A DNA stretch of 38,183 nucleotides from NCBI GenBank assembly GCA_002772115.1, contig PCRW01000068.1:1-38183 (forward strand). The letters are read 5' to 3'. Under the pieces are notes generated by a model, which was not told the DNA's origin, did no database searches, and was given only the letters and a program-made list of their open reading frames with translations. This document shows, in pieces, positions 11,821 to 35,748 of this stretch. Both the position numbers and the translations under genes were made by a program. This DNA is from Candidatus Moranbacteria bacterium CG23_combo_of_CG06-09_8_20_14_all_35_22 (GTDB lineage Bacteria; Patescibacteriota; Minisyncoccia; Moranbacterales; UBA2206). The first letter of the stretch is position 1, and every line of letters starts with the position of its first letter.

Positions 11821-13314
11821 TTATTTTTTCTTAAATATTATTTTTTTGAAAAAAGTAAAATCATCAAGGGTGAATTCTTTGAGGATAATTAAAACAAGAA
11901 GATAAATCCCAGCTAGGATAACGCTCCACAAAATGAAAAACCATTCTTGCGGAGGAAAAAAATTCGAAACAAGAAACATCAAAAATCCGGCGAAAATTAT
12001 TTTTGCAATGCTTTTTATTTGGATGAATTTTCCAAAATATCTTAGCGCATAAAATAATATTATCACAGTTATCAGTCCTGAAACAAGAGAAGTGGCGATG
12101 GCTGATCCGGAAATGCCAAATTTTAAAATCAAAATATAATTTAATCCAGCATTCAGAATCATTCCAAAAAGCGCAATGTACATTGGAATTTTGACTTTGC
12201 CGGCACCATTTAGCGCAAAACTTAGAACATAAAAAATTGTCAAAAATCCAACACCAGGAGCGAGGATTTGCATTGGCAAGACGGAATCGGCATAGCGGGA
12301 ACCAAAAAATAATTGAATGAGGGGTTCGGCATAAGCAACCATAAGAATTATTATCGGAACTAAAATCATCAGCATCAATCGAAAAGTCTGGCTCATTATC
12401 CGTTTTGTTTCTGTGAGATTATTTTGGGAAGTGGTTCTGGAAATCGAAGGCAACATTACCAAAGTTAGCGCGTAAAATAAATAATAGGGGATTCGGCCGA
12501 CAGTGAGTGAAGCGTTATAAATTCCAGTTAAATGATCATCAGCCAGCACTCCTTTGACTAGATATAAGTCCAAAGAAATCAGGAGTTCATAAAAAATCAT
12601 AAAAAGTGTCACGGGCCAAGCGTAATTAACTAGTTTTTTCCAATCAAAAAAATTCGCATTATTTTTGGGAAAATGCCGATTAATGAAAAATTTGTCAATC
12701 AGATAGGCGGTAAGAAAAACCGTAGCGGGAGCGAGAATATAGCCAGAGATGGAACCTTTCAATCCAAAAAAATAAGCTAGGCCAATAACAAAAATTATTC
12801 TGGCAAAAGAGCGAACTATTTTTAGGGTGGATTGCAGACTGAAGCGGTGAATGCCGATGTAATAATAAAGATAAAAAGAAGCGGCGGCAAAAGAGGGGAT
12901 AATCAAAGAAGAAATACGAAAAAGCGGAGTGAGAGTTGGATCACGCAAAATAAAGGATAGTACGGGAGCTAAAAGAAAAAATATTATCGTAATTATCCCA
13001 ATGAGGACAAATTGTAGTAAGGCCGCCTTTTTTTTGACACTCAAGACTAATTCTGGCTGACTTTCAAAAAAACCACTGATGTATTTACTCATAGCTGTCG
13101 GGATGCCATTGCCGATAAGCATAATGATCATTGTAGTGAGTGTCACAACTAATCCATAGCGTCCATAATCCGCGGGACCTAGCATTCGACCTAAAAATGC
13201 ATGGATAATATAACCAGAAAAATTGAAAAATATTTCTGCAATAGCCAGCCATAAAATTGAAGAAACTACGGTTTGTTTTTTTTCGCCAAAGGATGATTTT
13301 GCTAAATTTGACAT
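11821..13314 (-). CDS. Polysaccharide/oligosaccharide flippase (Wzx/MOP superfamily)
   Basis: 497 aa with about 14 TM helices and the typical polysaccharide-biosynthesis-protein layout. A 3-nt gap separates it from the downstream MPE gene, and its start overlaps the upstream gene by 13 nt. Confidence 0.75.
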   Translation of the reverse strand: MSNLAKSSFGEKKQTVVSSILWLAIAEIFFNFSGYIIHAFLGRMLGPADYGRYGLVVTLTTMIIMLIGNGIPTAMSKYISGFFESQPELVLSVKKKAALLQFVLIGIITIIFFLLAPVLSFILRDPTLTPLFRISSLIIPSFAAASFYLYYYIGIHRFSLQSTLKIVRSFARIIFVIGLAYFFGLKGSISGYILAPATVFLTAYLIDKFFINRHFPKNNANFFDWKKLVNYAWPVTLFMIFYELLISLDLYLVKGVLADDHLTGIYNASLTVGRIPYYLFYALTLVMLPSISRTTSQNNLTETKRIMSQTFRLMLMILVPIIILMVAYAEPLIQLFFGSRYADSVLPMQILAPGVGFLTIFYVLSFALNGAGKVKIPMYIALFGMILNAGLNYILILKFGISGSAIATSLVSGLITVIILFYALRYFGKFIQIKSIAKIIFAGFLMFLVSNFFPPQEWFFILWSVILAGIYLLVLIILKEFTLDDFTFFKKIIFKKK

Positions 13315-13916
13315 AATTTTTTTATTTCTTCAAAAACACTTTCTTTATTTTGATTGCCGTCAATTTTTTTCATATTCCAAAAGGAAAAATTAGCGTCATA
13401 CAATTCTTTTTTCTTTTTCAAATACTCCATTCCTTGATCAGGTTTTCGTTCGCGAGACATAATGATTTGCGGATCAGTTTGAAGATAGATCGCCAGATTT
13501 GGCTTCCTAACATCCGATGTTAGGAGTACTTTCCTAACATCGGATGTTAGGAGCGAAAGGTATTCAATATTCACAATGCTGTCATAAAAATATCGATCAC
13601 TTAATATATAATCAAATTTTTCTTTTTCCAATTTCTTGTATAATTTTTTAAAACGCCAAAGATCAATCATTAAAAATATTTTTCGTAAAAATATTTGAAA
13701 AAAATTGGCACGGATAACGCTTTTTTCTTTCTTGGACATTCGATGTCCAATTGGACATCGAATGTCCAAGAGACAACTAATTTTTTTAGCAAGGCCAAAC
13801 TCAATGGCATGAAAATAAAAGACCCGTTTATTTTGGGATTTTAGATATTCTTTTAGTAATTCTATTTGAGTGGATTTTCCAGAGCCATCTAGGCTGGAGA
13901 TTGTGATTAATTTCAT
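13302..13916 (-). CDS. Tmk-like P-loop NMP-kinase-fold protein carrying two palindromic in-frame inserts
   Basis: P-loop SLDGSGKSTQ, SDRYFYDS (DRY-type motif) and PNLAIYLQTDP (compare Tmk PDLTLYLD). The TMP-binding REPGGT-type motif is not visible, so true thymidylate kinase activity is uncertain. Confidence 0.6.
   Translation of the reverse strand: MKLITISSLDGSGKSTQIELLKEYLKSQNKRVFYFHAIEFGLAKKISCLLDIRCPIGHRMSKKEKSVIRANFFQIFLRKIFLMIDLWRFKKLYKKLEKEKFDYILSDRYFYDSIVNIEYLSLLTSDVRKVLLTSDVRKPNLAIYLQTDPQIIMSRERKPDQGMEYLKKKKELYDANFSFWNMKKIDGNQNKESVFEEIKKLCQI
13504..13557. repeat. Tandem 27-nt repeat (x2), each unit a 9-bp-stem hairpin, in-frame in the Tmk-like CDS
   Basis: ttcctaacatc[c]gatgttaggagtact / ttcctaacatc[g]gatgttaggagcgaa. 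The two hairpins differ only in the central loop base, so they are reverse complements of each other. They encode LLTSDVRKV-LLTSDVRKP. Confidence 0.9.
13731..13770. repeat. 40-nt perfect nested palindrome in-frame in the Tmk-like CDS
   Basis: cttggacattcgatgtccaa|ttggacatcgaatgtccaag. The whole segment is self-complementary and each half is itself an 8-bp-stem hairpin. It encodes ...LLDIRCPIGHRMS... Confidence 0.9.
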
Positions 13917-21785: not shown

Positions 21786-23003
21786 ATGAATAAAATAAAA
21801 ATAGGAATCAATGCCAGTTATCTTAGAAAGCCGAACACTGGTATCGGACAAGTGACAGCCAACTTTTTGAAAATGTTGGCAAGAGACAAAAATAATAACT
21901 TTGAATTTATTTTGTATTTAGAGGAAGAAATTCCAAAGGATTTCAAGCTTCCTAAAAATTTTACTAAAAAAATATTTTTGCCAATTTATAAGCGCGATGA
22001 TTTGATTCGAAAAATTTGGTGGGAAAAATTTCTTTTGCCGAGACAAGTCAAAAAAGACGGGTGTGATGTTTTTGTCAGTATGTACCAATGTCCCACTGTT
22101 TTCACAACGCTTAAGACGCCAAGCGTCTTGAATTCTGGACGCTTGGCGTCTTTGCGTCATATAATGCTAGTGCATGATATAATTCCAAAATTATTTCCCA
22201 AGTATTTGGATAATTTCAGAAAAAAAGTATATTGGAAATTGACGGAATATGGGATAAAAAAGGCGCACAAGATTATCGCTGTTTCCAAAAGAACGGAAAA
22301 AGATTTGATTGAACACTTGAATATCGGCGCAGACAGAATTACTACCAATTATATAGATGTCGATGAATGTTATAAGGTAGAGACGCAAAATTTTGCGTCT
22401 CTACGAGAGCGAAATATTTTAAAGAAATACAAATTAAATTCAGGATATATCTTAGCTGGTGGGGGATATGAGGTGCGAAAAAATGTCGAGGGTGTGGTGC
22501 GAGCCTATAAATTACTGTTAGAAAAAAACAAAAAAGAAAATTTTTTGCCAAATTTTCCGAAGTTAGCGATATACGGAAAGGTTTTGTCGGAAAGTTTGAG
22601 TCTGGCAACGCCGATAGAAAAAATATTGAGAGAATTAAATTTGACGAAAGATGTGATTCTTTTGGGTGAAGTCCCACAAAAAGACTTGCCGGCGCTGTTT
22701 AGTCATGCTATTGTGTTTGCTTACCCTTCGTTTTATGAGGGTTTTGGCATGCAAATTTTGGAAGCCATGAATGTGGGTACGCCTGCCATCACTTCCAAAG
22801 TTTCTTCACTGCCAGAAGTAGGCGGAGACAGTGTGTTATATTGTAATCCTGATGAAATTTCTGACATCGCAATGGTTTTGAAAAATATTTTAACGAATTA
22901 TGATTTACGAGAACAACTGAAAACTCGTGGCCAAGAACGCGCCAAACAATTTTCCTGGGAAAAATTTAGCGAGAAGATTTTAAATATAATTGAAGAAATG
23001 TAA
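21786..23003 (+). CDS. GT4-family glycosyltransferase carrying two palindromic in-frame inserts
   Basis: The motif YPSFYEGFGMQILEAMNVGTPAITS matches the paralogue at 24765-25925 (FPSFYEGFGMPIIEAMSLGVPTIVSD). Confidence 0.85.
   Translation: MNKIKIGINASYLRKPNTGIGQVTANFLKMLARDKNNNFEFILYLEEEIPKDFKLPKNFTKKIFLPIYKRDDLIRKIWWEKFLLPRQVKKDGCDVFVSMYQCPTVFTTLKTPSVLNSGRLASLRHIMLVHDIIPKLFPKYLDNFRKKVYWKLTEYGIKKAHKIIAVSKRTEKDLIEHLNIGADRITTNYIDVDECYKVETQNFASLRERNILKKYKLNSGYILAGGGYEVRKNVEGVVRAYKLLLEKNKKENFLPNFPKLAIYGKVLSESLSLATPIEKILRELNLTKDVILLGEVPQKDLPALFSHAIVFAYPSFYEGFGMQILEAMNVGTPAITSKVSSLPEVGGDSVLYCNPDEISDIAMVLKNILTNYDLREQLKTRGQERAKQFSWEKFSEKILNIIEEM
22113..22152. repeat. Near-perfect nested palindrome (double hairpin around a GAATTC centre), in-frame in a GT4 CDS
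   Basis: aagacgccaagcgtctt-gaattc-tggacgcttggcgtctt. It encodes ...LKTPSVLNSGRLASLRH..., which has no counterpart in the paralogue at 24765-25925. Confidence 0.85.
22377..22404. repeat. 28-nt perfect palindrome, copy 1, in-frame in a GT4 CDS
   Basis: gtagagacgcaaaattttgcgtctctac. It encodes VETQNFASLR. Confidence 0.9.
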
Positions 23004-24698
23004 ATGAATTTATTTTTTGAAAAAATAATTAATAACTTCAACAAGCCAAAAAATTGGCTTCTTTTGGCGAATGTGGTTTTGGTTTTTGTTTTGATAGTTT
23101 GCAATAATTTGGGAATTATTCCTTTGCGAATGGGGGATTTTGTTTTTTTTGCGATTTTAGTTTTGGGCTTGGCGCTGTATCGTCCTGGGTGGGCCTTTTT
23201 ATTTTTTGTTGGCACGATTGCATTGGAAAACATCAATTTGGCACCGGCCGAACTTGGAATTGCCATTCGACCCTATCAATTTATCGGCACGCTCACGATC
23301 ACGGCAATTATAACTCGATTACTTTCTGGAAAATTAAATTTCAAATTGGCAAAATTAAATTTTGTAGATTATCTAATTCTAATTATTACAGCGTCTAGTT
23401 TTGTAAGTGCGTTTATTTCTGCGGTAAAGATGCAAAATTTTGCGTCTCTACGGTTGGCGATAATTCTGGCGATATTTTCCGCGCTATATTTTTTAGTGCG
23501 AAATTATGTTCAAAATTTAGAAGATCTCAAAAAAATTATTCCTTTTTTTCTAAGTTCGGCGGTTGTCGTCGTGCTTTATGGCATTTGGCAAAATATTTGG
23601 TTTTTGAAAGGATTAAAAAGTTTTGAAACAATGTTGGGACGATCAAACGCAACTTTTTTCGAAGCGGATTGGCTGGGAATGTACTTAGTGTTGATAATAT
23701 CGATTTTAATAATTCTTTTTTCTGCCCTCTCCTCAACTCCCGCCTACCGGCGAGGCAGGCTCTCCCGATTACGGGCGAGGGGGTCATTGAAATTTCCTTC
23801 TCTCCCTTTGGGAGAGATATCCCGATGTAATCATCGGGACAGAGAGGGAAAGGGCGTATTAATAAAAATATTCTTATTTATATTTTTAACCTTATCTTTT
23901 ATTTTATTAATTCTTACTGTTTCACGCAGTGCTTGGCTCGGGGCATTTGCAATGACATTTATTTTTCTTTTCGCTATTCTAACAAATTTAAAATTTTATC
24001 TAAAACATTGGCAATGGAAAAAAACTATTCAAATGAAATTAATTATATTTCCGGCACTGTTAGTTGCAATTGGTGCAATTTATATTTTCCATCTGACTAA
24101 TTTCCAATTATTTAATCGAGTGCAATCAACTGGATCAGGAATGCAAAAAATTACCATTTCTTGTGATGCAAGGAACGCAAATTTGCATTCCCTACCGAAA
24201 GAAATTGAAAATATTTCTGAATTAGAAAAATATAATTGCCGGCATATAAATTTAGAAGAAATAGATTTTGAAAAAGCTAAAGGGAAATATGTTAGTGAAA
24301 TTTATCGTAAAGATCCAAATGTAAACATAAGAAAAGAAATTTATCAGAAATCTTGGCAAGAAATTAGAAATCATTGGATATTGGGAATTGGTTGGGGAAA
24401 TATTTCCAAAATATTAGGCAATGACGAAAAGGGGACGCCCTTGAATTCTTCCAATATATTTTTGGAAGTTTGGCTGGGCACTGGAATTTTAGGTTTTGCG
24501 TCTTTCGTTATTATGCTATCGTATATATTAGTAAGGGCAGTGAGAGATTATTATTTATCAAAAGATGATTTGCAAAAAATCGTCAGTTTATTTTTAATTA
24601 TTTCCTGGTTTGCAATTATTATCCCCAATCTTTTCAATGCCGGAATATTTTTAGGATTTTTGTGGGTTTGGCTGGGCATAGTACATATAAAAAAATAG
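23004..24698 (+). CDS. O-antigen ligase/polymerase-family (Wzy_C) membrane protein carrying three repeat-derived inserts
   Basis: Multi-TM protein with LTVSRSAWLGAF and a large outer loop followed by GIGWGN. Its ATG abuts the stop of the upstream GT4 gene. Confidence 0.7.
   Translation: MNLFFEKIINNFNKPKNWLLLANVVLVFVLIVCNNLGIIPLRMGDFVFFAILVLGLALYRPGWAFLFFVGTIALENINLAPAELGIAIRPYQFIGTLTITAIITRLLSGKLNFKLAKLNFVDYLILIITASSFVSAFISAVKMQNFASLRLAIILAIFSALYFLVRNYVQNLEDLKKIIPFFLSSAVVVVLYGIWQNIWFLKGLKSFETMLGRSNATFFEADWLGMYLVLIISILIILFSALSSTPAYRRGRLSRLRARGSLKFPSLPLGEISRCNHRDREGKGVLIKIFLFIFLTLSFILLILTVSRSAWLGAFAMTFIFLFAILTNLKFYLKHWQWKKTIQMKLIIFPALLVAIGAIYIFHLTNFQLFNRVQSTGSGMQKITISCDARNANLHSLPKEIENISELEKYNCRHINLEEIDFEKAKGKYVSEIYRKDPNVNIRKEIYQKSWQEIRNHWILGIGWGNISKILGNDEKGTPLNSSNIFLEVWLGTGILGFASFVIMLSYILVRAVRDYYLSKDDLQKIVSLFLIISWFAIIIPNLFNAGIFLGFLWVWLGIVHIKK
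23424..23451. repeat. 28-nt palindrome, copy 2 (2 mismatches), in-frame in the O-antigen-ligase-like CDS
   Basis: gtaaagatgcaaaattttgcgtctctac. It encodes VKMQNFASLR. Confidence 0.9.
23722..23856. repeat. GC-rich multi-hairpin block of about 135 nt, in-frame in the O-antigen-ligase-like CDS
   Basis: It contains cccgcctaccggcgaggcagg (23739-59), and the hairpins cccg-atta-cggg (23764-75), tctctccc-ttt-gggagaga (23799-817) and cccgatg-taat-catcggg (23821-38). It encodes STPAYRRGRLSRLRARGSLKFPSLPLGEISRCNHRDREGKG. Confidence 0.85.
24171..24192. repeat. Imperfect 22-nt palindrome in-frame in the O-antigen-ligase-like CDS
   Basis: aggaacgcaaa|tttgcattccc (9 of 11 arm positions pair). Its gcaaa-tttgc core is related to the 28-nt palindrome. 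It encodes ARNANLHSL. Confidence 0.6.
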
Positions 24699-24705
24699 GA
24701 AGGTT

Positions 24706-24752
24706 AAATTCGAGGTTTCACCTCGAGTAACTCGAGGTGAAACCTCGAATTT
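24706..24752. repeat. 47-nt perfect nested palindrome (double hairpin), intergenic
   Basis: aaattcgaggtttcacctcgagt-a-actcgaggtgaaacctcgaattt. Each arm contains the hairpin cgaggt-nnn-acctcg. It lies between the ligase-like stop (24698) and the GT4 start (24765). Confidence 0.9.
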
Positions 24753-24764
24753 ATTTAAATCATT

Positions 24765-33564: not shown

Positions 33565-33954
33565 ATGAACAAAAGAATAATTAGCAATATAATATTTTCT
33601 GTAATTTTAGTTTTAATGGTCTTAATTTTTTTAGATTTTATTGGTATTTTTAATATTTTTTATTATGATAGACATCCTTTATTATTATGCCCAGGACAAA
33701 ATAAATATTGGAAAGATATATTTAATTCAGGAGTGCTATTTGACGAAAATAAGTTCGATGCTTATCAAGGTATTTTAAATATTATTATCTTTGTATTATA
33801 TCCAATTATATATTTAGTATTTGAAATACAATATTTTAGAAAAAAAAGATTAACGCTATTGGCAGTTTTTTTAACAATTTTTTTCATTGCATATTTTATT
33901 AATATTATTTCTTATGAATGTTGGGCGGAGTTTTTTAATTTTGATCCTTACTAG
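33565..33954 (+). CDS. Hypothetical integral membrane protein
   Basis: 129 aa with 3-4 hydrophobic segments. It begins 5 nt after the previous ORF. Confidence 0.5.
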   Translation: MNKRIISNIIFSVILVLMVLIFLDFIGIFNIFYYDRHPLLLCPGQNKYWKDIFNSGVLFDENKFDAYQGILNIIIFVLYPIIYLVFEIQYFRKKRLTLLAVFLTIFFIAYFINIISYECWAEFFNFDPY

Positions 33955-34412
33955 TCCTTACTAGTTTGTTTGAAATTTATCTTTTTATATTTCAACAAAA
34001 AATAAATCAAGAAATAAAAAACCAAAGAAATTGCTCCAGCGATTATTATGAAGCCAACACTTAAAGGCAATAATAATTTCAAAATAATAGTTTCGGAAAA
34101 AAATTGTTTGAAAGCAAGTGGATAAGTTTGATTGAAATTGACAATAAGTTCTTGCATTTCAACTCCAAAAATCCAACTTCCCAATTTGACGGCAAAGGGC
34201 ATAATTAAAATTGATGTCCAAAAATTAGTCGCTAATACTCCGGCAACAGCGGATAAACGGTTCACTCTTATTATCCAAGCAATTACAATAGCGGTTAAAA
34301 TTCCCCCCGGAATAATTCCCAAAAAAATTCCCAAAGCCGCTCCCGCAGCAACTTTATGCGGAGTGTCATCGATGAGAAAGAATTTTTTGAAAAAAGTTTT
34401 TAATTTATGCAT
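33951..34412 (-). CDS. DUF2062-like small integral membrane protein
   Basis: FFLIDDTPHKVAAGAALGIFLGIIP, followed by 3-4 TM helices. Confidence 0.6.
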   Translation of the reverse strand: MHKLKTFFKKFFLIDDTPHKVAAGAALGIFLGIIPGGILTAIVIAWIIRVNRLSAVAGVLATNFWTSILIMPFAVKLGSWIFGVEMQELIVNFNQTYPLAFKQFFSETIILKLLLPLSVGFIIIAGAISLVFYFLIYFLLKYKKINFKQTSKD

Positions 34413-34426
34413 ATAAATTGCTATAG

Positions 34427-34451
34427 GGATCCTGAAATAAATTCAGGATGA
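34427..34451. repeat. 25-bp inverted-repeat arm (left) flanking the nuclease gene; itself a hairpin or operator-like palindrome
   Basis: gatcctgaaataaattcaggatgac is the exact reverse complement of 35656-35680. Confidence 0.85.
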
Positions 34452-34488
34452 CAAAAACACAAGTTCAGGATGATTCCACTAAGCGGAA

Positions 34489-35643
34489 TCATTTTTTCTT
34501 CACGCTTAAACTTTTGGTTTCTTTGTTGAGAACTTTGGCTTTTTCAATTTCCTTTTTGGCATCAAATGGTAAGACACCCAGAATATTTCGCAGTGCAATG
34601 CCATCTACTTTCAACACATCTTCCCAATGATCAAGTGGTTCCAAAACTTCACGGAGTTTTTTCTCGTCATATTTATAAGTTTTGCGAAGTGACCTCGCAA
34701 TGACGCCTTGTGGCCCAAAAACTCGCTCCACGCCTTCTTGATCCATATAACTCAAGATATCCTCTTGCAGTTTTGCTAAACGATCTTTGGTAATATTTAT
34801 CGCTGATTTCAAATCTATGTATTCTTCGATAGATTTGTTAATTTCTTCTGTGTCGATGTGACGCAGTTCTTTGAATTTATGTTTCCACATTGGGCAAAGA
34901 TTTTGGTATCCGCACCAATCGCAAAGAGGGGACATAGTCGGCTCAAAATTACCAGCCTCAATGACTTTTATAGTGTCTAAAAAGAGTTGTTCACTTTTTT
35001 TCAATTGTTCTAAGGTTCTTGTGGCGGATAATTTCATGCCATGTTTCAAATAATATAAGCTAACTTTTATTTTATCTAAATTTTGAATTTCTTTGGGATA
35101 ATTAGAAAGAAATGCTTGCAGATAAACAGAGAGTTGAATGTCGTTGTCAACTTTTTCTTGATTAGGCATTTTCTTGGTAGTTTTATAATCAATAATTTCA
35201 AAACCATCGTCAGTTTTGTCTATGCGGTCGATGATGCCAGAGATGATATGTCTTTCTTGGGCTTGCCCCGCGGTCGCCGTAGGTGACTTTGCGGGGCCTA
35301 TTTCAATTTGAAAACGGGATTCCAAATTGATAATATTAAAATCAGCCGGATTATTTTTTTGATAATAATCTTGAATAATTTTGACGCCTTGGGAAAAGGC
35401 GGCACGCTCCTCAGTTTCTCCGTCGAAAACTGCTGGGTTCCAGGAATTTCCAAAATGTTCCATAGCTTGATCCAAAGTAGGGGAGAGAATTCCCGGTGTA
35501 TGGATAAATTTCATTGTTTCATGAATTGTCGAGCCAAAAACCGCCTCCTTGGATTTAGGAACTTTAATTCGATCAATATTTTGAAATTTATATTTCAGCG
35601 GGCAATTCTGATAGGCATCAAAAGCACTGTAGGATATACGCAT
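34489..35643 (-). CDS. PD-(D/E)XK nuclease, Cas4/AddB-like with a 4-Cys cluster
   Basis: N-terminal SAFDAYQNCPLKYKF. Nuclease core GIIDRID ... EIIDYKT. CDWCGYQNLCP, together with the N-terminal Cys, fits an Fe-S staple. A C-terminal extension of about 130 aa follows. Confidence 0.75.
   Translation of the reverse strand: MRISYSAFDAYQNCPLKYKFQNIDRIKVPKSKEAVFGSTIHETMKFIHTPGILSPTLDQAMEHFGNSWNPAVFDGETEERAAFSQGVKIIQDYYQKNNPADFNIINLESRFQIEIGPAKSPTATAGQAQERHIISGIIDRIDKTDDGFEIIDYKTTKKMPNQEKVDNDIQLSVYLQAFLSNYPKEIQNLDKIKVSLYYLKHGMKLSATRTLEQLKKSEQLFLDTIKVIEAGNFEPTMSPLCDWCGYQNLCPMWKHKFKELRHIDTEEINKSIEEYIDLKSAINITKDRLAKLQEDILSYMDQEGVERVFGPQGVIARSLRKTYKYDEKKLREVLEPLDHWEDVLKVDGIALRNILGVLPFDAKKEIEKAKVLNKETKSLSVKKK
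35266..35296. repeat. GC-rich hairpin in-frame in the nuclease CDS
   Basis: ccccgc-ggtcgccgtaggtgacttt-gcgggg. It encodes ...AKSPTATAGQAQ... in an otherwise AT-rich gene. Confidence 0.7.
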
Positions 35644-35653
35644 AAGAAATAAA

Positions 35654-35712
35654 TTGTCATCCTGAATTTATTTCAGGATCTCAAGAGATGCTGAAACAAG
35701 TTCAGCATGACA
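35654..35712. repeat. Right inverted-repeat arm plus a second related palindrome, enclosed by a 7-bp outer stem (double-hairpin module)
   Basis: ttgtcat-cctgaatttatttcagg-atctcaagag-atgctgaaacaagttcagcat-gacaa. Both inner palindromes share CTGAA-N5-TTCAG. Confidence 0.8.
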
Positions 35713-35748
35713 ATAAAATAATGATTTTATGAATGTAGTATATCACTG

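What the first reader, a model, noticed from the sequence alone, without database searches (positions are those of the whole stretch)
13731..13770. 40-nt perfect nested palindrome inside the Tmk-like gene
cttggacattcgatgtccaattggacatcgaatgtccaag is exactly self-complementary, and each 19-20 nt half is itself an 8-bp-stem hairpin (ttggacat-NNN-atgtccaa). It shares the core ACAT-YCG-ATGT with the element 200 nt away (cctaACATccgATGTtagg). Two structurally identical elements with partly related cores in one 615-nt gene is far from chance. A 40-nt perfect palindrome in a coding region should also be a replication and recombination hazard.
Basis: seen in the sequence. Interest (0 to 1): 0.65.

Follow-up and report, generated by a model that had tools for sequence, protein, structure and literature searches.

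The report
REP-hairpin doublet inserted inside a gene
The 40-base perfect palindrome is real: it is a tiny parasitic DNA element (two back-to-back hairpins of the kind moved by a REP-associated tyrosine transposase) sitting in-frame in a surface loop of a thymidylate-kinase-like gene of a Moranbacteria (CPR) bacterium, a known type of element in a host group where it has apparently not been described.

Summary
Window 13731-13770 is exactly self-complementary (42 nt with its flanks), and each half is an 8-bp/3-nt hairpin. A second doublet lies at 13505-13552. Both are identical in at least 7 independent assemblies.

The palindrome belongs to a dispersed hairpin family with termini ACTTRG...CYAAGT and a free interior. 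The same zero-spacer doublet occurs in at least 5 unrelated contexts in other CPR genomes: a parA-parB spacer, MetRS, a membrane protein, a large surface protein, and tmk.

The same hairpin brackets, and lies inside, genes for a Y1/HUH transposase in all 5 distinct transposase loci examined (six fetched contigs). That transposase's predicted fold best matches the E. coli REP-associated tyrosine transposase bound to a REP hairpin (4er8).

The element is therefore best read as a REPIN-like REP doublet. It is probably mobilised as single-stranded DNA and tolerated because it sits in-frame in a disordered loop. The two loops of this kinase family are hot spots that hold many different palindromic elements.

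Intragenic REP dimers are already known in Opitutus and Rickettsia. What is new is the host phylum, the element type, and REP copies embedded in-frame in the transposase gene itself. No transposase was seen in the window, and element B has no demonstrated cognate enzyme.

The parts
13730..13771 (.). Element A: 42-nt perfect palindrome, a zero-spacer doublet of two REP-like hairpins (13732-13750 TTGGACAT-tcg-ATGTCCAA; 13751-13769 TTGGACAT-cga-ATGTCCAA). It is translated in-frame as (C)LLDIRCPIGHRMSK in loop 1 of the kinase.
   Evidence: sequence; ssDNA folds as one long hairpin, -21.8 kcal/mol, z -10.4; same doublet in at least 5 contexts; identical hairpin inside and beside RAYT genes; residues 40-44 and 53-65 have pLDDT below 50
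13505..13552 (.). Element B: second hairpin doublet, TCCTAACAT-ccg-ATGTTAGGA gtactt TCCTAACAT-cgg-ATGTTAGGA, translated as LLTSDVRK-V-LLTSDVRK in loop 2. It is a sister family sharing the ACAT-CCG-ATGT core; no cognate transposase was demonstrated.
   Evidence: orthologues carry mirror-symmetric variants at the same site; -24.0 kcal/mol; no RAYT with a B-type peptide found
13302..13916 (-). Host gene: thymidylate-kinase-family protein (204 aa) of a Moranbacteria-type CPR bacterium. Its two variable loops carry elements A and B.
24705..24753 (.). Element C: intergenic nested palindrome of the same architecture but a different sequence (TAAATT CGAGGT-ttc-ACCTCG agtaact CGAGGT-gaa-ACCTCG AATTTA), lying between two + strand genes.
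   Evidence: -26.2 kcal/mol
22377..22404 (.). 28-nt perfect palindrome GTAGAGACGCAAAATTTTGCGTCTCTAC with GTAG/CTAC ends, in-frame (VETQNFASLR) in a variable linker of a GT4 glycosyltransferase. It is shared with L009.
35655..35714 (.). Element D: intergenic double hairpin TGTCATCCTGAA-tttat-TTCAGGAT ctcaagag ATGCTGAA-acaag-TTCAGCATGACA, a CGTC-like REP head-to-head dimer. The same element type is found translated in-frame in loop 2 of the kinase in other species.
34425..34497 (.). Element E: related hairpins (ATCCTGAA-ataaa-TTCAGGAT ... ATGATTCC-actaagc-GGAATCAT) on the other side of the PD-(D/E)XK nuclease gene.

Best explanation
Element A is a REPIN-like element: two copies of a short REP-type hairpin (unit ACTTRG-interior-loop-interior-CYAAGT) joined head to head with no spacer. 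In single-stranded DNA the 38-42 nt fold into one long hairpin. The family belongs to a Y1/HUH tyrosine transposase (RAYT-like) that is widespread in Moranbacteria and other CPR bacteria, whose gene is bracketed by these same hairpins. The likely mechanism, inferred by analogy with IS200/IS605 TnpA and the E. coli RAYT, is that the transposase dimer recognises the two hairpins in ssDNA, probably through the conserved termini plus the stem shape. It then cuts next to them and pastes the doublet into ssDNA elsewhere. A doublet is then the smallest possible non-autonomous transposon, consisting of two transposase-binding ends and no cargo. In these about 1-Mb, gene-dense genomes, copies survive only in short intergenic spacers or where they keep the reading frame in a structurally permissive loop. 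Loop 1 of the Tmk-like kinase is such a place, and loop 2 holds element B, a sister doublet. Only copies that still form a perfect hairpin remain mobilisable, and arm-to-arm correction may also act. This would explain why copies differ only by mirror-symmetric changes. Shown: the palindrome, its dispersal, its insertion character, and the association of the hairpin with the transposase gene and that protein's fold. Inferred: that this transposase moves the doublet, the ssDNA route, and neutrality for the host.
For: (1) The same zero-spacer doublet, TTGGACAY-NNN-RTGTCCAA twice, is found in at least 5 unrelated contexts in other CPR genomes with GC of 34-42%: the parA-parB spacer, MetRS, a membrane protein, a protein of at least 860 aa, and tmk. 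All 10 hits are perfect palindromes, although the pattern left loops and the inner pair free. (2) It is an insertion. Three orthologues of the L016 membrane protein have a clean 10-aa gap exactly at LGHGVSNWT, and many Tmk orthologues lack loop-1 sequence. (3) The family is multi-copy: 4 elements in the 11-kb contig L093; 43 TTRG..CYAA perfect hairpins in 528 kb of CPR DNA against 3.4 in shuffles and 0 in 847 kb of non-CPR DNA. That CPR count is inflated, because some of those loci were fetched with this hairpin as the search pattern. (4) In all 5 distinct transposase loci examined (L093, L032, L104 with its duplicate L105, L106, L107) a Y1 transposase gene is flanked by, and contains, these hairpins. 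L104/L105 contain ACTTGGACAT-cga-ATGTCCAAGT twice, and L107 has CTAC-TTGGACAT-cga-ATGTCCAA-GTAG 13 nt upstream of its start codon, which is exactly the hairpin of the finding. (5) Transposase identity: Pfam Y1_Tnp 33.3 bits against a cut-off of 23 for L032; best NCBIfam hit REP_Tyr_transpos; JGI names homologues 'REP element-mobilizing transposase RayT'; invariant NPNH.H (HUH) and Tyr columns; AlphaFold model pLDDT 84.4, whose best PDB match is 4er8, the RAYT bound to a REP hairpin (E 4.5e-5, probability 1.0), followed by IS608 and ISDra2 TnpA. (6) As ssDNA the doublet folds as one long hairpin, -21.8 kcal/mol, z -10.4. (7) Permissive site: both inserts fall in the low-confidence segments of an otherwise confident kinase model. 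Loop 2 of 120 homologues holds A-type hairpins (7), B-type doublets (11), GTCAT-type double hairpins (13) and others, scattered over the gene tree. (8) The constraint is on DNA symmetry, not on peptide. Orthologous B doublets differ by mirrored changes while the peptides change freely. In L101 each small hairpin has a mismatch but arm 2 is still the exact reverse complement of arm 1.
Against: No transposase gene lies in the 38-kb window, and the window holds only one A-type element, so both copy number and presence of the enzyme in this particular genome are unknown. Transposition was not observed; no empty and filled alleles of one strain were available. The transposase is a distant relative of curated RAYTs: NCBIfam 22-27 bits against a cut-off of 80, L093 just under the Pfam cut-off, and a sequence profile not significant against PDB. 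Flanking hairpins of one transposase gene can differ in their interior from the internal ones (L104, L032), so strict one-to-one cognate pairing is not shown. Element B has different termini (CCTAAC..GTTAGG). No transposase with a B-type peptide was seen among 270 family members, counting the 120 best word-search hits and the 150 best 50%-identity representatives. Its presence at the same site in many species could instead reflect vertical descent with arm-to-arm correction. In MetRS the element lies in a variable linker and is not clearly extra sequence.
Confidence: 0.75

Rival explanations
1. The palindromes are made locally, without any transposase, by replication template switching (fold-back copying and quasi-palindrome correction) at slippery sites in permissive loops. 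The resemblance between copies would reflect a common mutational bias.
For: Variation between copies is always mirror-symmetric, with no G.T pairs in the long palindrome, as expected of templated copying between arms. Different, unrelated palindromes occupy the same two loops in different species.
Against: The identical 8-nt stem and the zero-spacer architecture recur in at least 5 unrelated genes and spacers and in several genomes. The same hairpin brackets a Y1 transposase gene. Local template switching copies neighbouring sequence and cannot reproduce one specific 19-mer at unrelated loci. It may still explain how the arms are kept identical.
Confidence: 0.07
2. The doublets are host-selected cis-elements embedded in the gene, for example an RNA processing or stability hairpin within the RtcB-tmk-flippase operon, or a DNA site bound by the RAYT-like protein for regulation. 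They would be kept at these positions by selection.
For: A hairpin doublet is present at the same position in loop 2 in many orthologues, with structure preserved while sequence changes. The literature reports that REPs are often co-opted for mRNA stability and termination. Intergenic copies sit in intercistronic spacers such as parA-parB.
Against: Presence is patchy on the gene tree, and closest relatives carry different elements or none. Copies occur in unrelated genes with no common operon context. The stems use only Watson-Crick pairs and are strand-symmetric, which is not the pattern of RNA-level selection.
Confidence: 0.1
3. The encoded peptides are functional additions to the kinase, for example a Cys/His metal site in LLDIRCPIGHRMS, and the palindromy is incidental.
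For: Many orthologues have a Cys-rich loop 1 (FRNKYCLICKLTGKCK), so the loop might bind metal.
Against: The same DNA element is read in another frame (GHxMSNWTxxVQ) in the other host proteins and is untranslated between parA and parB. The peptides of orthologous B doublets are not conserved. Both regions are low-confidence in the model.
Confidence: 0.03
4. Assembly or amplification artefact, such as a chimeric inverted join.
For: Perfect palindromes can arise from MDA chimeras or assembly graph errors.
Against: Both palindromes are identical in 7 independently assembled contigs from different samples and pipelines, and element A is conserved in a lineage with a 79% identical protein. The reading frame is intact.
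Confidence: 0.01

Closest known systems
[quoted passage not shown] 2010, PMC2817692; Bertels & Rainey 2011, PMC3116915 and PMC3337134)
   Same: There are two short palindromic REP units in inverted orientation that fold into one hairpin in ssDNA. The family is dispersed. A Y1/HUH transposase gene is flanked by the same units. The transposase fold is closest to the E. coli RAYT (4er8). One flanking copy even carries the GTAG tail (L107).
   Different: There is no spacer, and the element is 38-42 bp in total against about 100 bp. The units are perfect palindromes, including their termini (ACTTRG..CYAAGT), so only the loop gives orientation. This copy is intragenic and in-frame, whereas REPINs are 'almost exclusively extragenic'. 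The host is CPR/Patescibacteria rather than Proteobacteria. The transposase is far below the curated RAYT threshold, has a C-terminal extension, and has two REP copies inside its own coding sequence.
Intragenic GTAG- and CGTC-tagged REP dimers (Di Nocera, De Gregorio & Rocco 2013, PMC3733652)
   Same: REPs and REP dimers lie wholly inside ORFs of known proteins, including DNA-repair genes, and encode 20-30 extra residues. Some dimers have partners only 1-2 bp apart. They are interpreted as tolerated insertions. The window's elements D and E and the 28-nt GTAG palindrome resemble these two super-families.
   Different: Those were described in Opitutus terrae, Rickettsia, Thauera and others, not in CPR. 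Element A has a different tag and a fully symmetric unit. The recurrent use of the same two loops of one protein family by many element types was not described there.
Rickettsia palindromic elements (RPEs; Ogata et al. 2000, cited from my own knowledge; summarised in PMC1779305)
   Same: They are selfish palindromic repeats found both between genes and in-frame inside protein-coding genes, including an aminoacyl-tRNA synthetase, in a reduced genome.
   Different: RPEs are 100-150 bp and imperfect, with no demonstrated transposase. Element A is 42 bp and perfect, and its family is linked to a Y1 transposase gene.
IS200/IS605 insertion sequences and their hairpin ends (TnpA of IS608 and ISDra2)
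   Same: The catalytic fold is the same (second-ranked structural matches). Subterminal hairpins are recognised in ssDNA. The transposase gene is bracketed by hairpins.
   Different: Whether the CPR gene moves itself (IS-like) or is a single-copy RAYT could not be tested. IS ends are imperfect hairpins with guide sequences, and no such asymmetry is visible here.
Mitochondrial double-hairpin elements and palindromic GC clusters of fungi and algae (Paquin et al. 2000 from my own knowledge; see the papers listed)
   Same: They are very short two-hairpin mobile elements that also land in-frame in coding regions of compact genomes.
   Different: They are organellar and unrelated in sequence, and no associated transposase is known.

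Membership tests
REP / REPIN | Short (about 20-40 nt) palindromic unit | tested here: met
   The units are 19-23 nt with an 8-10 bp stem and a 1-3 nt loop.
REP / REPIN | Two units in inverted orientation that fold into one hairpin in ssDNA | tested here: met
   Loop 2 is the reverse complement of loop 1 in all 5 doublets found locally and in all 10 metagenome hits. The ssDNA minimum-free-energy structure is one long hairpin, -21.8 kcal/mol, z -10.4.
REP / REPIN | Dispersed, multi-copy within a genome | tested here: inconclusive
   Met for relatives: 4 elements in the 11-kb contig L093, and 2-3 in L016/L097. The window's own 38 kb holds a single A-type element, and the whole genome was not available.
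REP / REPIN | A RAYT gene flanked by the same REP type | tested here: met
   Met in L093, L032, L104/L105, L106 and L107; L104 and L107 carry the exact hairpin of the finding. Not shown for the window's genome, since no RAYT lies in the window.
REP / REPIN | Extragenic location | tested here: not met
   Element A lies in-frame inside ORF 13302-13916. Other copies lie in MetRS, a membrane protein and a large protein. Intragenic REPs are, however, documented.
REP / REPIN | Conserved GTAG (or CGTC) tag at one end | tested here: inconclusive
   The family termini are ACTTRG..CYAAGT. A full GTAG tail is seen in L107's flanking copy (CTAC..GTAG), and GTAA in L104 and L106. The window copy ends ..CCAAGA.
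REP / REPIN | Spacer between the two REPs, with total length near 100 bp | tested here: not met
   Element A has a zero spacer and is 38-42 bp in total; B has a 6-nt spacer and C a 5-7 nt spacer. Dimers with 1-2 bp spacers are known in O. terrae and Wolbachia.
RAYT (REP-associated tyrosine transposase), for the associated gene | Y1_Tnp (PF01797) domain above the curated cut-off | tested here: met
   L032 ORF scores 33.3 bits against 23; L093 ORF scores 22.1 bits, just below. Of the 120 best homologues, 117 carry a precomputed PF01797 hit.
RAYT (REP-associated tyrosine transposase), for the associated gene | NCBIfam REP_Tyr_transpos equivalog cut-off (80 bits) | tested here: not met
   It is the best and only hit, but at 22.5 and 27.4 bits. 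This makes the gene a distant clade, not an equivalog.
RAYT (REP-associated tyrosine transposase), for the associated gene | HUH motif and catalytic tyrosine | tested here: met
   Invariant columns N81-P82-N83-H84-x-H86 and Y111 (Y108 nearly invariant) in alignments of 40 and 42 homologues. The assignment of the catalytic Tyr is by position only.
RAYT (REP-associated tyrosine transposase), for the associated gene | Fold of RAYT / IS200 TnpA | tested here: met
   AlphaFold model pLDDT 84.4 and pTM 0.83. The best PDB match is 4er8_A, the RAYT bound to a REP hairpin (E 4.5e-5, probability 1.00, TM 0.63 on the target), followed by IS608 and ISDra2 TnpA.
RAYT (REP-associated tyrosine transposase), for the associated gene | Single copy per genome, vertically inherited (as opposed to an IS-like multi-copy gene) | not testable with these tools
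   Only contig fragments were available.
Rickettsia palindromic elements (RPE) | 100-150 bp repeat families of Rickettsiales | tested here: not met
   Element A is 42 bp, lies in a CPR host, and has an unrelated sequence.
Rickettsia palindromic elements (RPE) | In-frame insertion into protein-coding genes at tolerated sites | tested here: met
   This is a shared behaviour, not family membership.

The most novel reading that the evidence does not exclude
CPR bacteria may carry a distinct REPIN-RAYT variant in which the transposase gene has two in-frame copies of its own target hairpin at fixed protein positions. These copies co-vary with each other: 37 of 61 genes have identical interiors against 4.8 expected. 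The doublets routinely colonise surface loops of housekeeping proteins. If the embedded copies are functional, for example in autoregulation or as the template that sets the family's sequence, and if arm-to-arm symmetry is actively rewritten by the enzyme, this would be a transposase-driven system that keeps remodelling protein loops in ultra-small genomes rather than a passive parasite.
Probability: 0.15. Interest if true: 0.75.

Novelty: new variant of a known kind. Interest (0 to 1): 0.5.

Why it matters
The finding explains an odd-looking 40-nt perfect palindrome in a coding region as an ordinary biological object, a minimal two-hairpin transposon. It also suggests that REPIN/RAYT-type systems, so far studied mainly in Proteobacteria, are common in Patescibacteria. 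The library search found no paper linking the two.

In these gene-dense, roughly 1-Mb genomes the elements end up in-frame inside genes, including MetRS and the transposase gene itself. This matters in three practical ways:
- CPR protein families will show indel-rich 'hypervariable loops' that are really selfish DNA, which affects alignment, annotation and structure prediction.
- The perfect, mirror-symmetric variation offers a clean natural data set on what a Y1 transposase recognises: conserved termini and a free interior.
- The family gives simple markers for strain tracking in metagenomes.

Tried and rejected
1. The 153-aa and 384-aa ORF pair flanked by hairpins at 33951-35643 looked like an IS200/IS605 element. 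Pfam shows DUF2062 and a PD-(D/E)XK nuclease instead, so the idea was rejected.
2. A regex screen for Y1/RAYT motifs over 541 kb found nothing. The regex was too narrow and missed the real genes, which were found later through hairpin clustering.
3. A sequence search of the transposase against PDB found no hit with a single sequence and nothing significant with a profile. Only the fold comparison worked.
4. No cognate transposase for element B was found. None of the 120 close or 150 representative family members carries an LTSDVR-type peptide.
5. Viral-contig scans returned B-type hairpins only as isolated singlets in GC-richer phage-like contigs, near chance for 16 specified bases, plus one contig (L113) with its own 3-copy repeat. 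There was one imperfect A-type hit. These are not informative.
6. In MetRS the element lies in a variable linker, but the alignment to solved structures does not show it as clearly extra sequence.
7. The GTAG palindrome in the glycosyltransferase is only 3 aa longer than the orthologous linker, so it is not a clean insertion.
8. DNA for the closest orthologue lacking element A (P0003) and for P0013 was not retrievable. No empty-site or filled-site comparison at the nucleotide level, and hence no target-site inference, was possible.
Full report
**1. The observation**

Window 13731-13770 reads CTTGGACATTCGATGTCCAATTGGACATCGAATGTCCAAG and equals its reverse complement. With the flanking T and A the perfect palindrome is 42 nt long, 13730-13771. 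Each half is TTGGACAT-NNN-ATGTCCAA. The stems are themselves palindromic, so the two halves differ only in the loop (TCG versus CGA).

A second element of the same build lies at 13505-13552: 21-nt arms that are 100% complementary, with a 6-nt spacer. Both lie in ORF 13302-13916 on the minus strand, which is 204 aa and scores 43.9 bits for Pfam Thymidylate_kin.

Chance does not explain this:
- The expected number of 40-nt perfect palindromes in the window is 2.5e-7.
- A dedicated scan for hairpin doublets found 5 in 440 kb of CPR DNA, none in 847 kb of non-CPR loci and none in shuffles.
- ACAT-NNN-ATGT occurs four times in the window, all in these two elements, against 0.63 expected.

The gene is base-identical in 6 of 7 independently assembled metagenome contigs, and both palindromes are identical in all 7. 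It is therefore not an assembly artefact.

**2. Where the elements sit in the protein**

The protein belongs to a large Tmk-like family of Moranbacteria and Parcubacteria, 189-236 aa long among the 120 best homologues listed. In an alignment of 32 members, the two palindromes coincide with the two indel-rich, hypervariable loops. An AlphaFold model is confident overall, with mean pLDDT 81.8. The exceptions are residues 40-44 and 53-65, which cover element A, and the block 121-130, within element B.

At the DNA level, orthologues carry other palindromes at these same places:
- L009, the closest genome at 79% aa identity, shares element A. In loop 2 it has a different 42-nt near-palindrome.
- L013 has GTAGGGAACAAAAATTTTTGTTCCCTAC in loop 2.
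- L029 has a GC-rich double hairpin in loop 1.

Among 120 homologues, loop 2 encodes the following:
- A-type single hairpins (WTSNVQ) in 7.
- B-type doublets in 11.
- GTCAT...ATGAC double hairpins in 13.
- AT-rich IENWK repeats in 11.
- A non-palindromic IPCEKF motif in 22.

These types are scattered over the gene tree. The GTCAT-type peptide CHPEFISGSxEMLKQVQHDK is the literal translation of the element that is intergenic in the window at 35655-35714.

**3. Symmetry is the constraint**

Orthologous B doublets differ by mirrored changes:
- Window: CCTAACAT-CCG-ATGTTAGG paired with the CGG form.
- L099: the loops are TGA and TCA.
- L102 and L009: the CTAAGGT-TGA-ACCTTAG type.

The peptides change freely at the same time. 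In L101 each small hairpin has a mismatch, yet arm 2 is still the exact reverse complement of arm 1. The preserved feature is therefore the long DNA palindrome, not the protein and not a G.U-tolerant RNA helix.

**4. Element A is a dispersed family**

A zero-spacer doublet TTGGACAC-gga-GTGTCCAA|TTGGACAC-tcc-GTGTCCAA lies in a membrane-protein gene of a Parcubacteria genome (L016), about 5 kb from its tmk. One metagenome scan used the pattern TTGGACA-N5-TGTCCAATTGGACA-N5-TGTCCAA and gave 10 loci. All are perfect palindromes, although the loops and the inner pair were left free. They fall in at least 5 contexts:
- tmk loop 1.
- The 80-nt parA-parB spacer.
- A protein of at least 860 aa.
- MetRS.
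- The L016-type membrane protein.

Loops differ between contexts (TCG, CCG, TTA, GGA) and are always mirrored. The host genomes differ in GC from 33.5% to 41.9%. In the membrane protein the element is a clean insertion: three orthologues, including the window's own copy, have a 10-residue gap there. Different reading frames of the element are used in different hosts.

**5. The transposase link**

A census of perfect hairpins showed four family members within one 11-kb contig, L093. Three of them surround and interrupt a 212-aa ORF. L032 shows the same picture around a 224-aa ORF that is 49% identical.

Evidence on what these ORFs encode:
- They hit Pfam Y1_Tnp at 33.3 and 22.1 bits against a cut-off of 23.
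- Their only NCBIfam match is REP_Tyr_transpos, far below its cut-off of 80 bits.
- The family has 1823 detectable members, many from Moranbacteria and other CPR groups, and JGI names them 'REP element-mobilizing transposase RayT'.
- NPNH.H (HUH) and a Tyr are invariant.
- A model with pLDDT 84.4 has as its best PDB match 4er8, the E. coli REP-associated tyrosine transposase bound to a REP hairpin (E 4.5e-5). IS608 and ISDra2 TnpA follow.

Three further transposase loci show the same arrangement:
- L104 and L105 contain ACTTGGACAT-cga-ATGTCCAAGT twice.
- L107 has CTAC-TTGGACAT-cga-ATGTCCAA-GTAG just upstream and two more copies inside.
- L106 is tightly bracketed by ACTTAGACAT-tgg-ATGTCTAAGT.

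The hairpin of the finding is thus exactly the hairpin associated with this transposase. Family termini (ACTTRG...CYAAGT) are conserved and interiors are free. TTRG..CYAA perfect hairpins number 43 in 528 kb of CPR DNA, against 3.4 in shuffles and 0 in 847 kb of non-CPR DNA. Some of those CPR loci were fetched by searching for this very hairpin, so the CPR count is inflated.

**6. Interpretation**

The element has the anatomy of a REPIN: two REPs in inverted orientation that fold into one hairpin in ssDNA (literature; folding). The most likely mechanism is mobilisation in trans by the RAYT-like Y1 transposase acting on ssDNA, as with IS200/IS605. The doublet would be a minimal two-ended, cargo-free transposon.

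Copies persist where they do no harm, either in short spacers or in-frame in disordered loops. Perfect mirrored variation is expected if only intact hairpins are mobilisable. Arm-to-arm correction by template switching may add to it.

These steps are inferred. No transposition event was observed, no transposase lies in the window, and the copy number in this genome is unknown. Element B shares the ACAT-CCG-ATGT core but has other termini, and no transposase with a matching peptide was found among 270 family members. Its recurrence at one site may be vertical descent with concerted arm evolution, or repeated insertion.

**7. What is known and what is new**

REPINs are described as almost exclusively extragenic and about 100 bp long. 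However, Di Nocera et al. 2013 already report the following:
- GTAG- and CGTC-tagged REPs and REP dimers lie inside ORFs of Opitutus terrae, Rickettsia (RPE-4 and RPE-6) and other species.
- These inserts encode 20-30 residues.
- In some families the dimer partners are only 1-2 bp apart.

RPEs in-frame in genes are also classical. So an intragenic REP dimer is not new in kind. I found nothing in the held literature on the following points:
- REPIN/RAYT systems in Patescibacteria.
- This fully symmetric ACTTRG...CYAAGT unit.
- Two in-frame REP copies inside the transposase gene at conserved positions. These give L-[G/R]-x-x-x-S-K, and the interiors of the two copies are identical in 37 of 61 genes against 4.8 expected.

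**8. Verdict**

The best explanation is a REPIN-like doublet of a CPR RAYT system inserted in-frame in a permissive loop (confidence about 0.75). It is a new variant of a known kind, of moderate interest.

Noticed in passing
L104 480-502 and 759-781; L107 500-522 and 779-801; L032 4920-4942 and 5196-5218; L093 5561-5583; L106 439-463: The CPR RAYT-like transposase genes carry in-frame copies of their own REP hairpin at two conserved protein positions (L-[G/R]-x-x-x-S-K). In 61 homologues with both copies parsed, the interiors are identical in 37 against 4.8 expected by shuffling partners, with 33 distinct interiors overall. The first copy maps to the low-confidence loop 58-67 of the model.
   Followed up: partly
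window 24705-24753: An intergenic 49-nt perfect palindrome with the same nested architecture but an unrelated sequence (CGAGGT-ttc-ACCTCG / CGAGGT-gaa-ACCTCG) lies between a Wzy_C-like gene and a glycosyltransferase gene. No relatives or associated enzyme were sought.
   Followed up: partly
window 22377-22404 (also L009 1076-1103, L013 10052-10079, L028 9504-9531): These perfect palindromes have GTAG...CTAC ends and AT-rich centres. The window copy is in-frame (VETQNFASLR) in a variable linker of a GT4 glycosyltransferase and is shared with L009. L013 has one in tmk loop 2. They may belong to the GTAG-tagged REP super-family.
   Followed up: partly
window 35655-35714 and 34425-34497: (T)GTCAT...ATGAC double hairpins flank a PD-(D/E)XK/Cas4-like nuclease gene (34489-35643) and a DUF2062 gene. 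The same element type is translated in-frame (CHPEFISGSxEMLKQVQHDK) in tmk loop 2 of other species (P0054, P0095). Related ATTCCCGC..GCGGGAAT hairpins (L016, L028, L029, L097) resemble the Neisseria CGTC-1/dRS3 REP.
   Followed up: partly
window 23799-23839; L013 5248-5290: Two adjacent short hairpins (TCTCTCCC-ttt-GGGAGAGA and TCCCGATG-taat-CATCGGGA) lie inside the Wzy_C-like ORF 23004-24698, and the same pair type occurs in L013. CCTCTCCC..GGGAGAGG-type hairpins recur in L016, L019, L093, L095 and L097. This is possibly another REP-like family.
   Followed up: no
L013 4582-4605, 4690-4714, 10428-10454, 10492-10517: A further hairpin family with GGTTCA(G/A) stems occurs in one Moranbacteria locus. 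Two copies are inside a 718-aa ORF and two lie just downstream of tmk.
   Followed up: no
Tmk-like family loop 1 (for example P0010, L010, L101): Many orthologues have a conserved Cys-rich loop (FRNKYCLICKLTGKCK) where the window has element A. Others have remnants of yet another palindromic element (RSNLEIATSPLAPRNDN in P0004 and P0031).
   Followed up: no
L113 454-472, 570-588, 1763-1781 (IMG/VR contig): A GC-rich (54%) phage-like contig carries three copies of CCTAACATC(A/T)GATGTTAGG, the same hairpin as element B. Any relation to the CPR elements is unknown.
   Followed up: no
window 13302-13314: The Tmk-like gene overlaps the start of the downstream polysaccharide-flippase gene (11821-13314) by 13 nt. 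It sits in a glycosyltransferase/O-antigen-type cluster next to RtcB, an unusual neighbourhood for a thymidylate kinase, and this synteny is kept in L099, L100 and L102.
   Followed up: no
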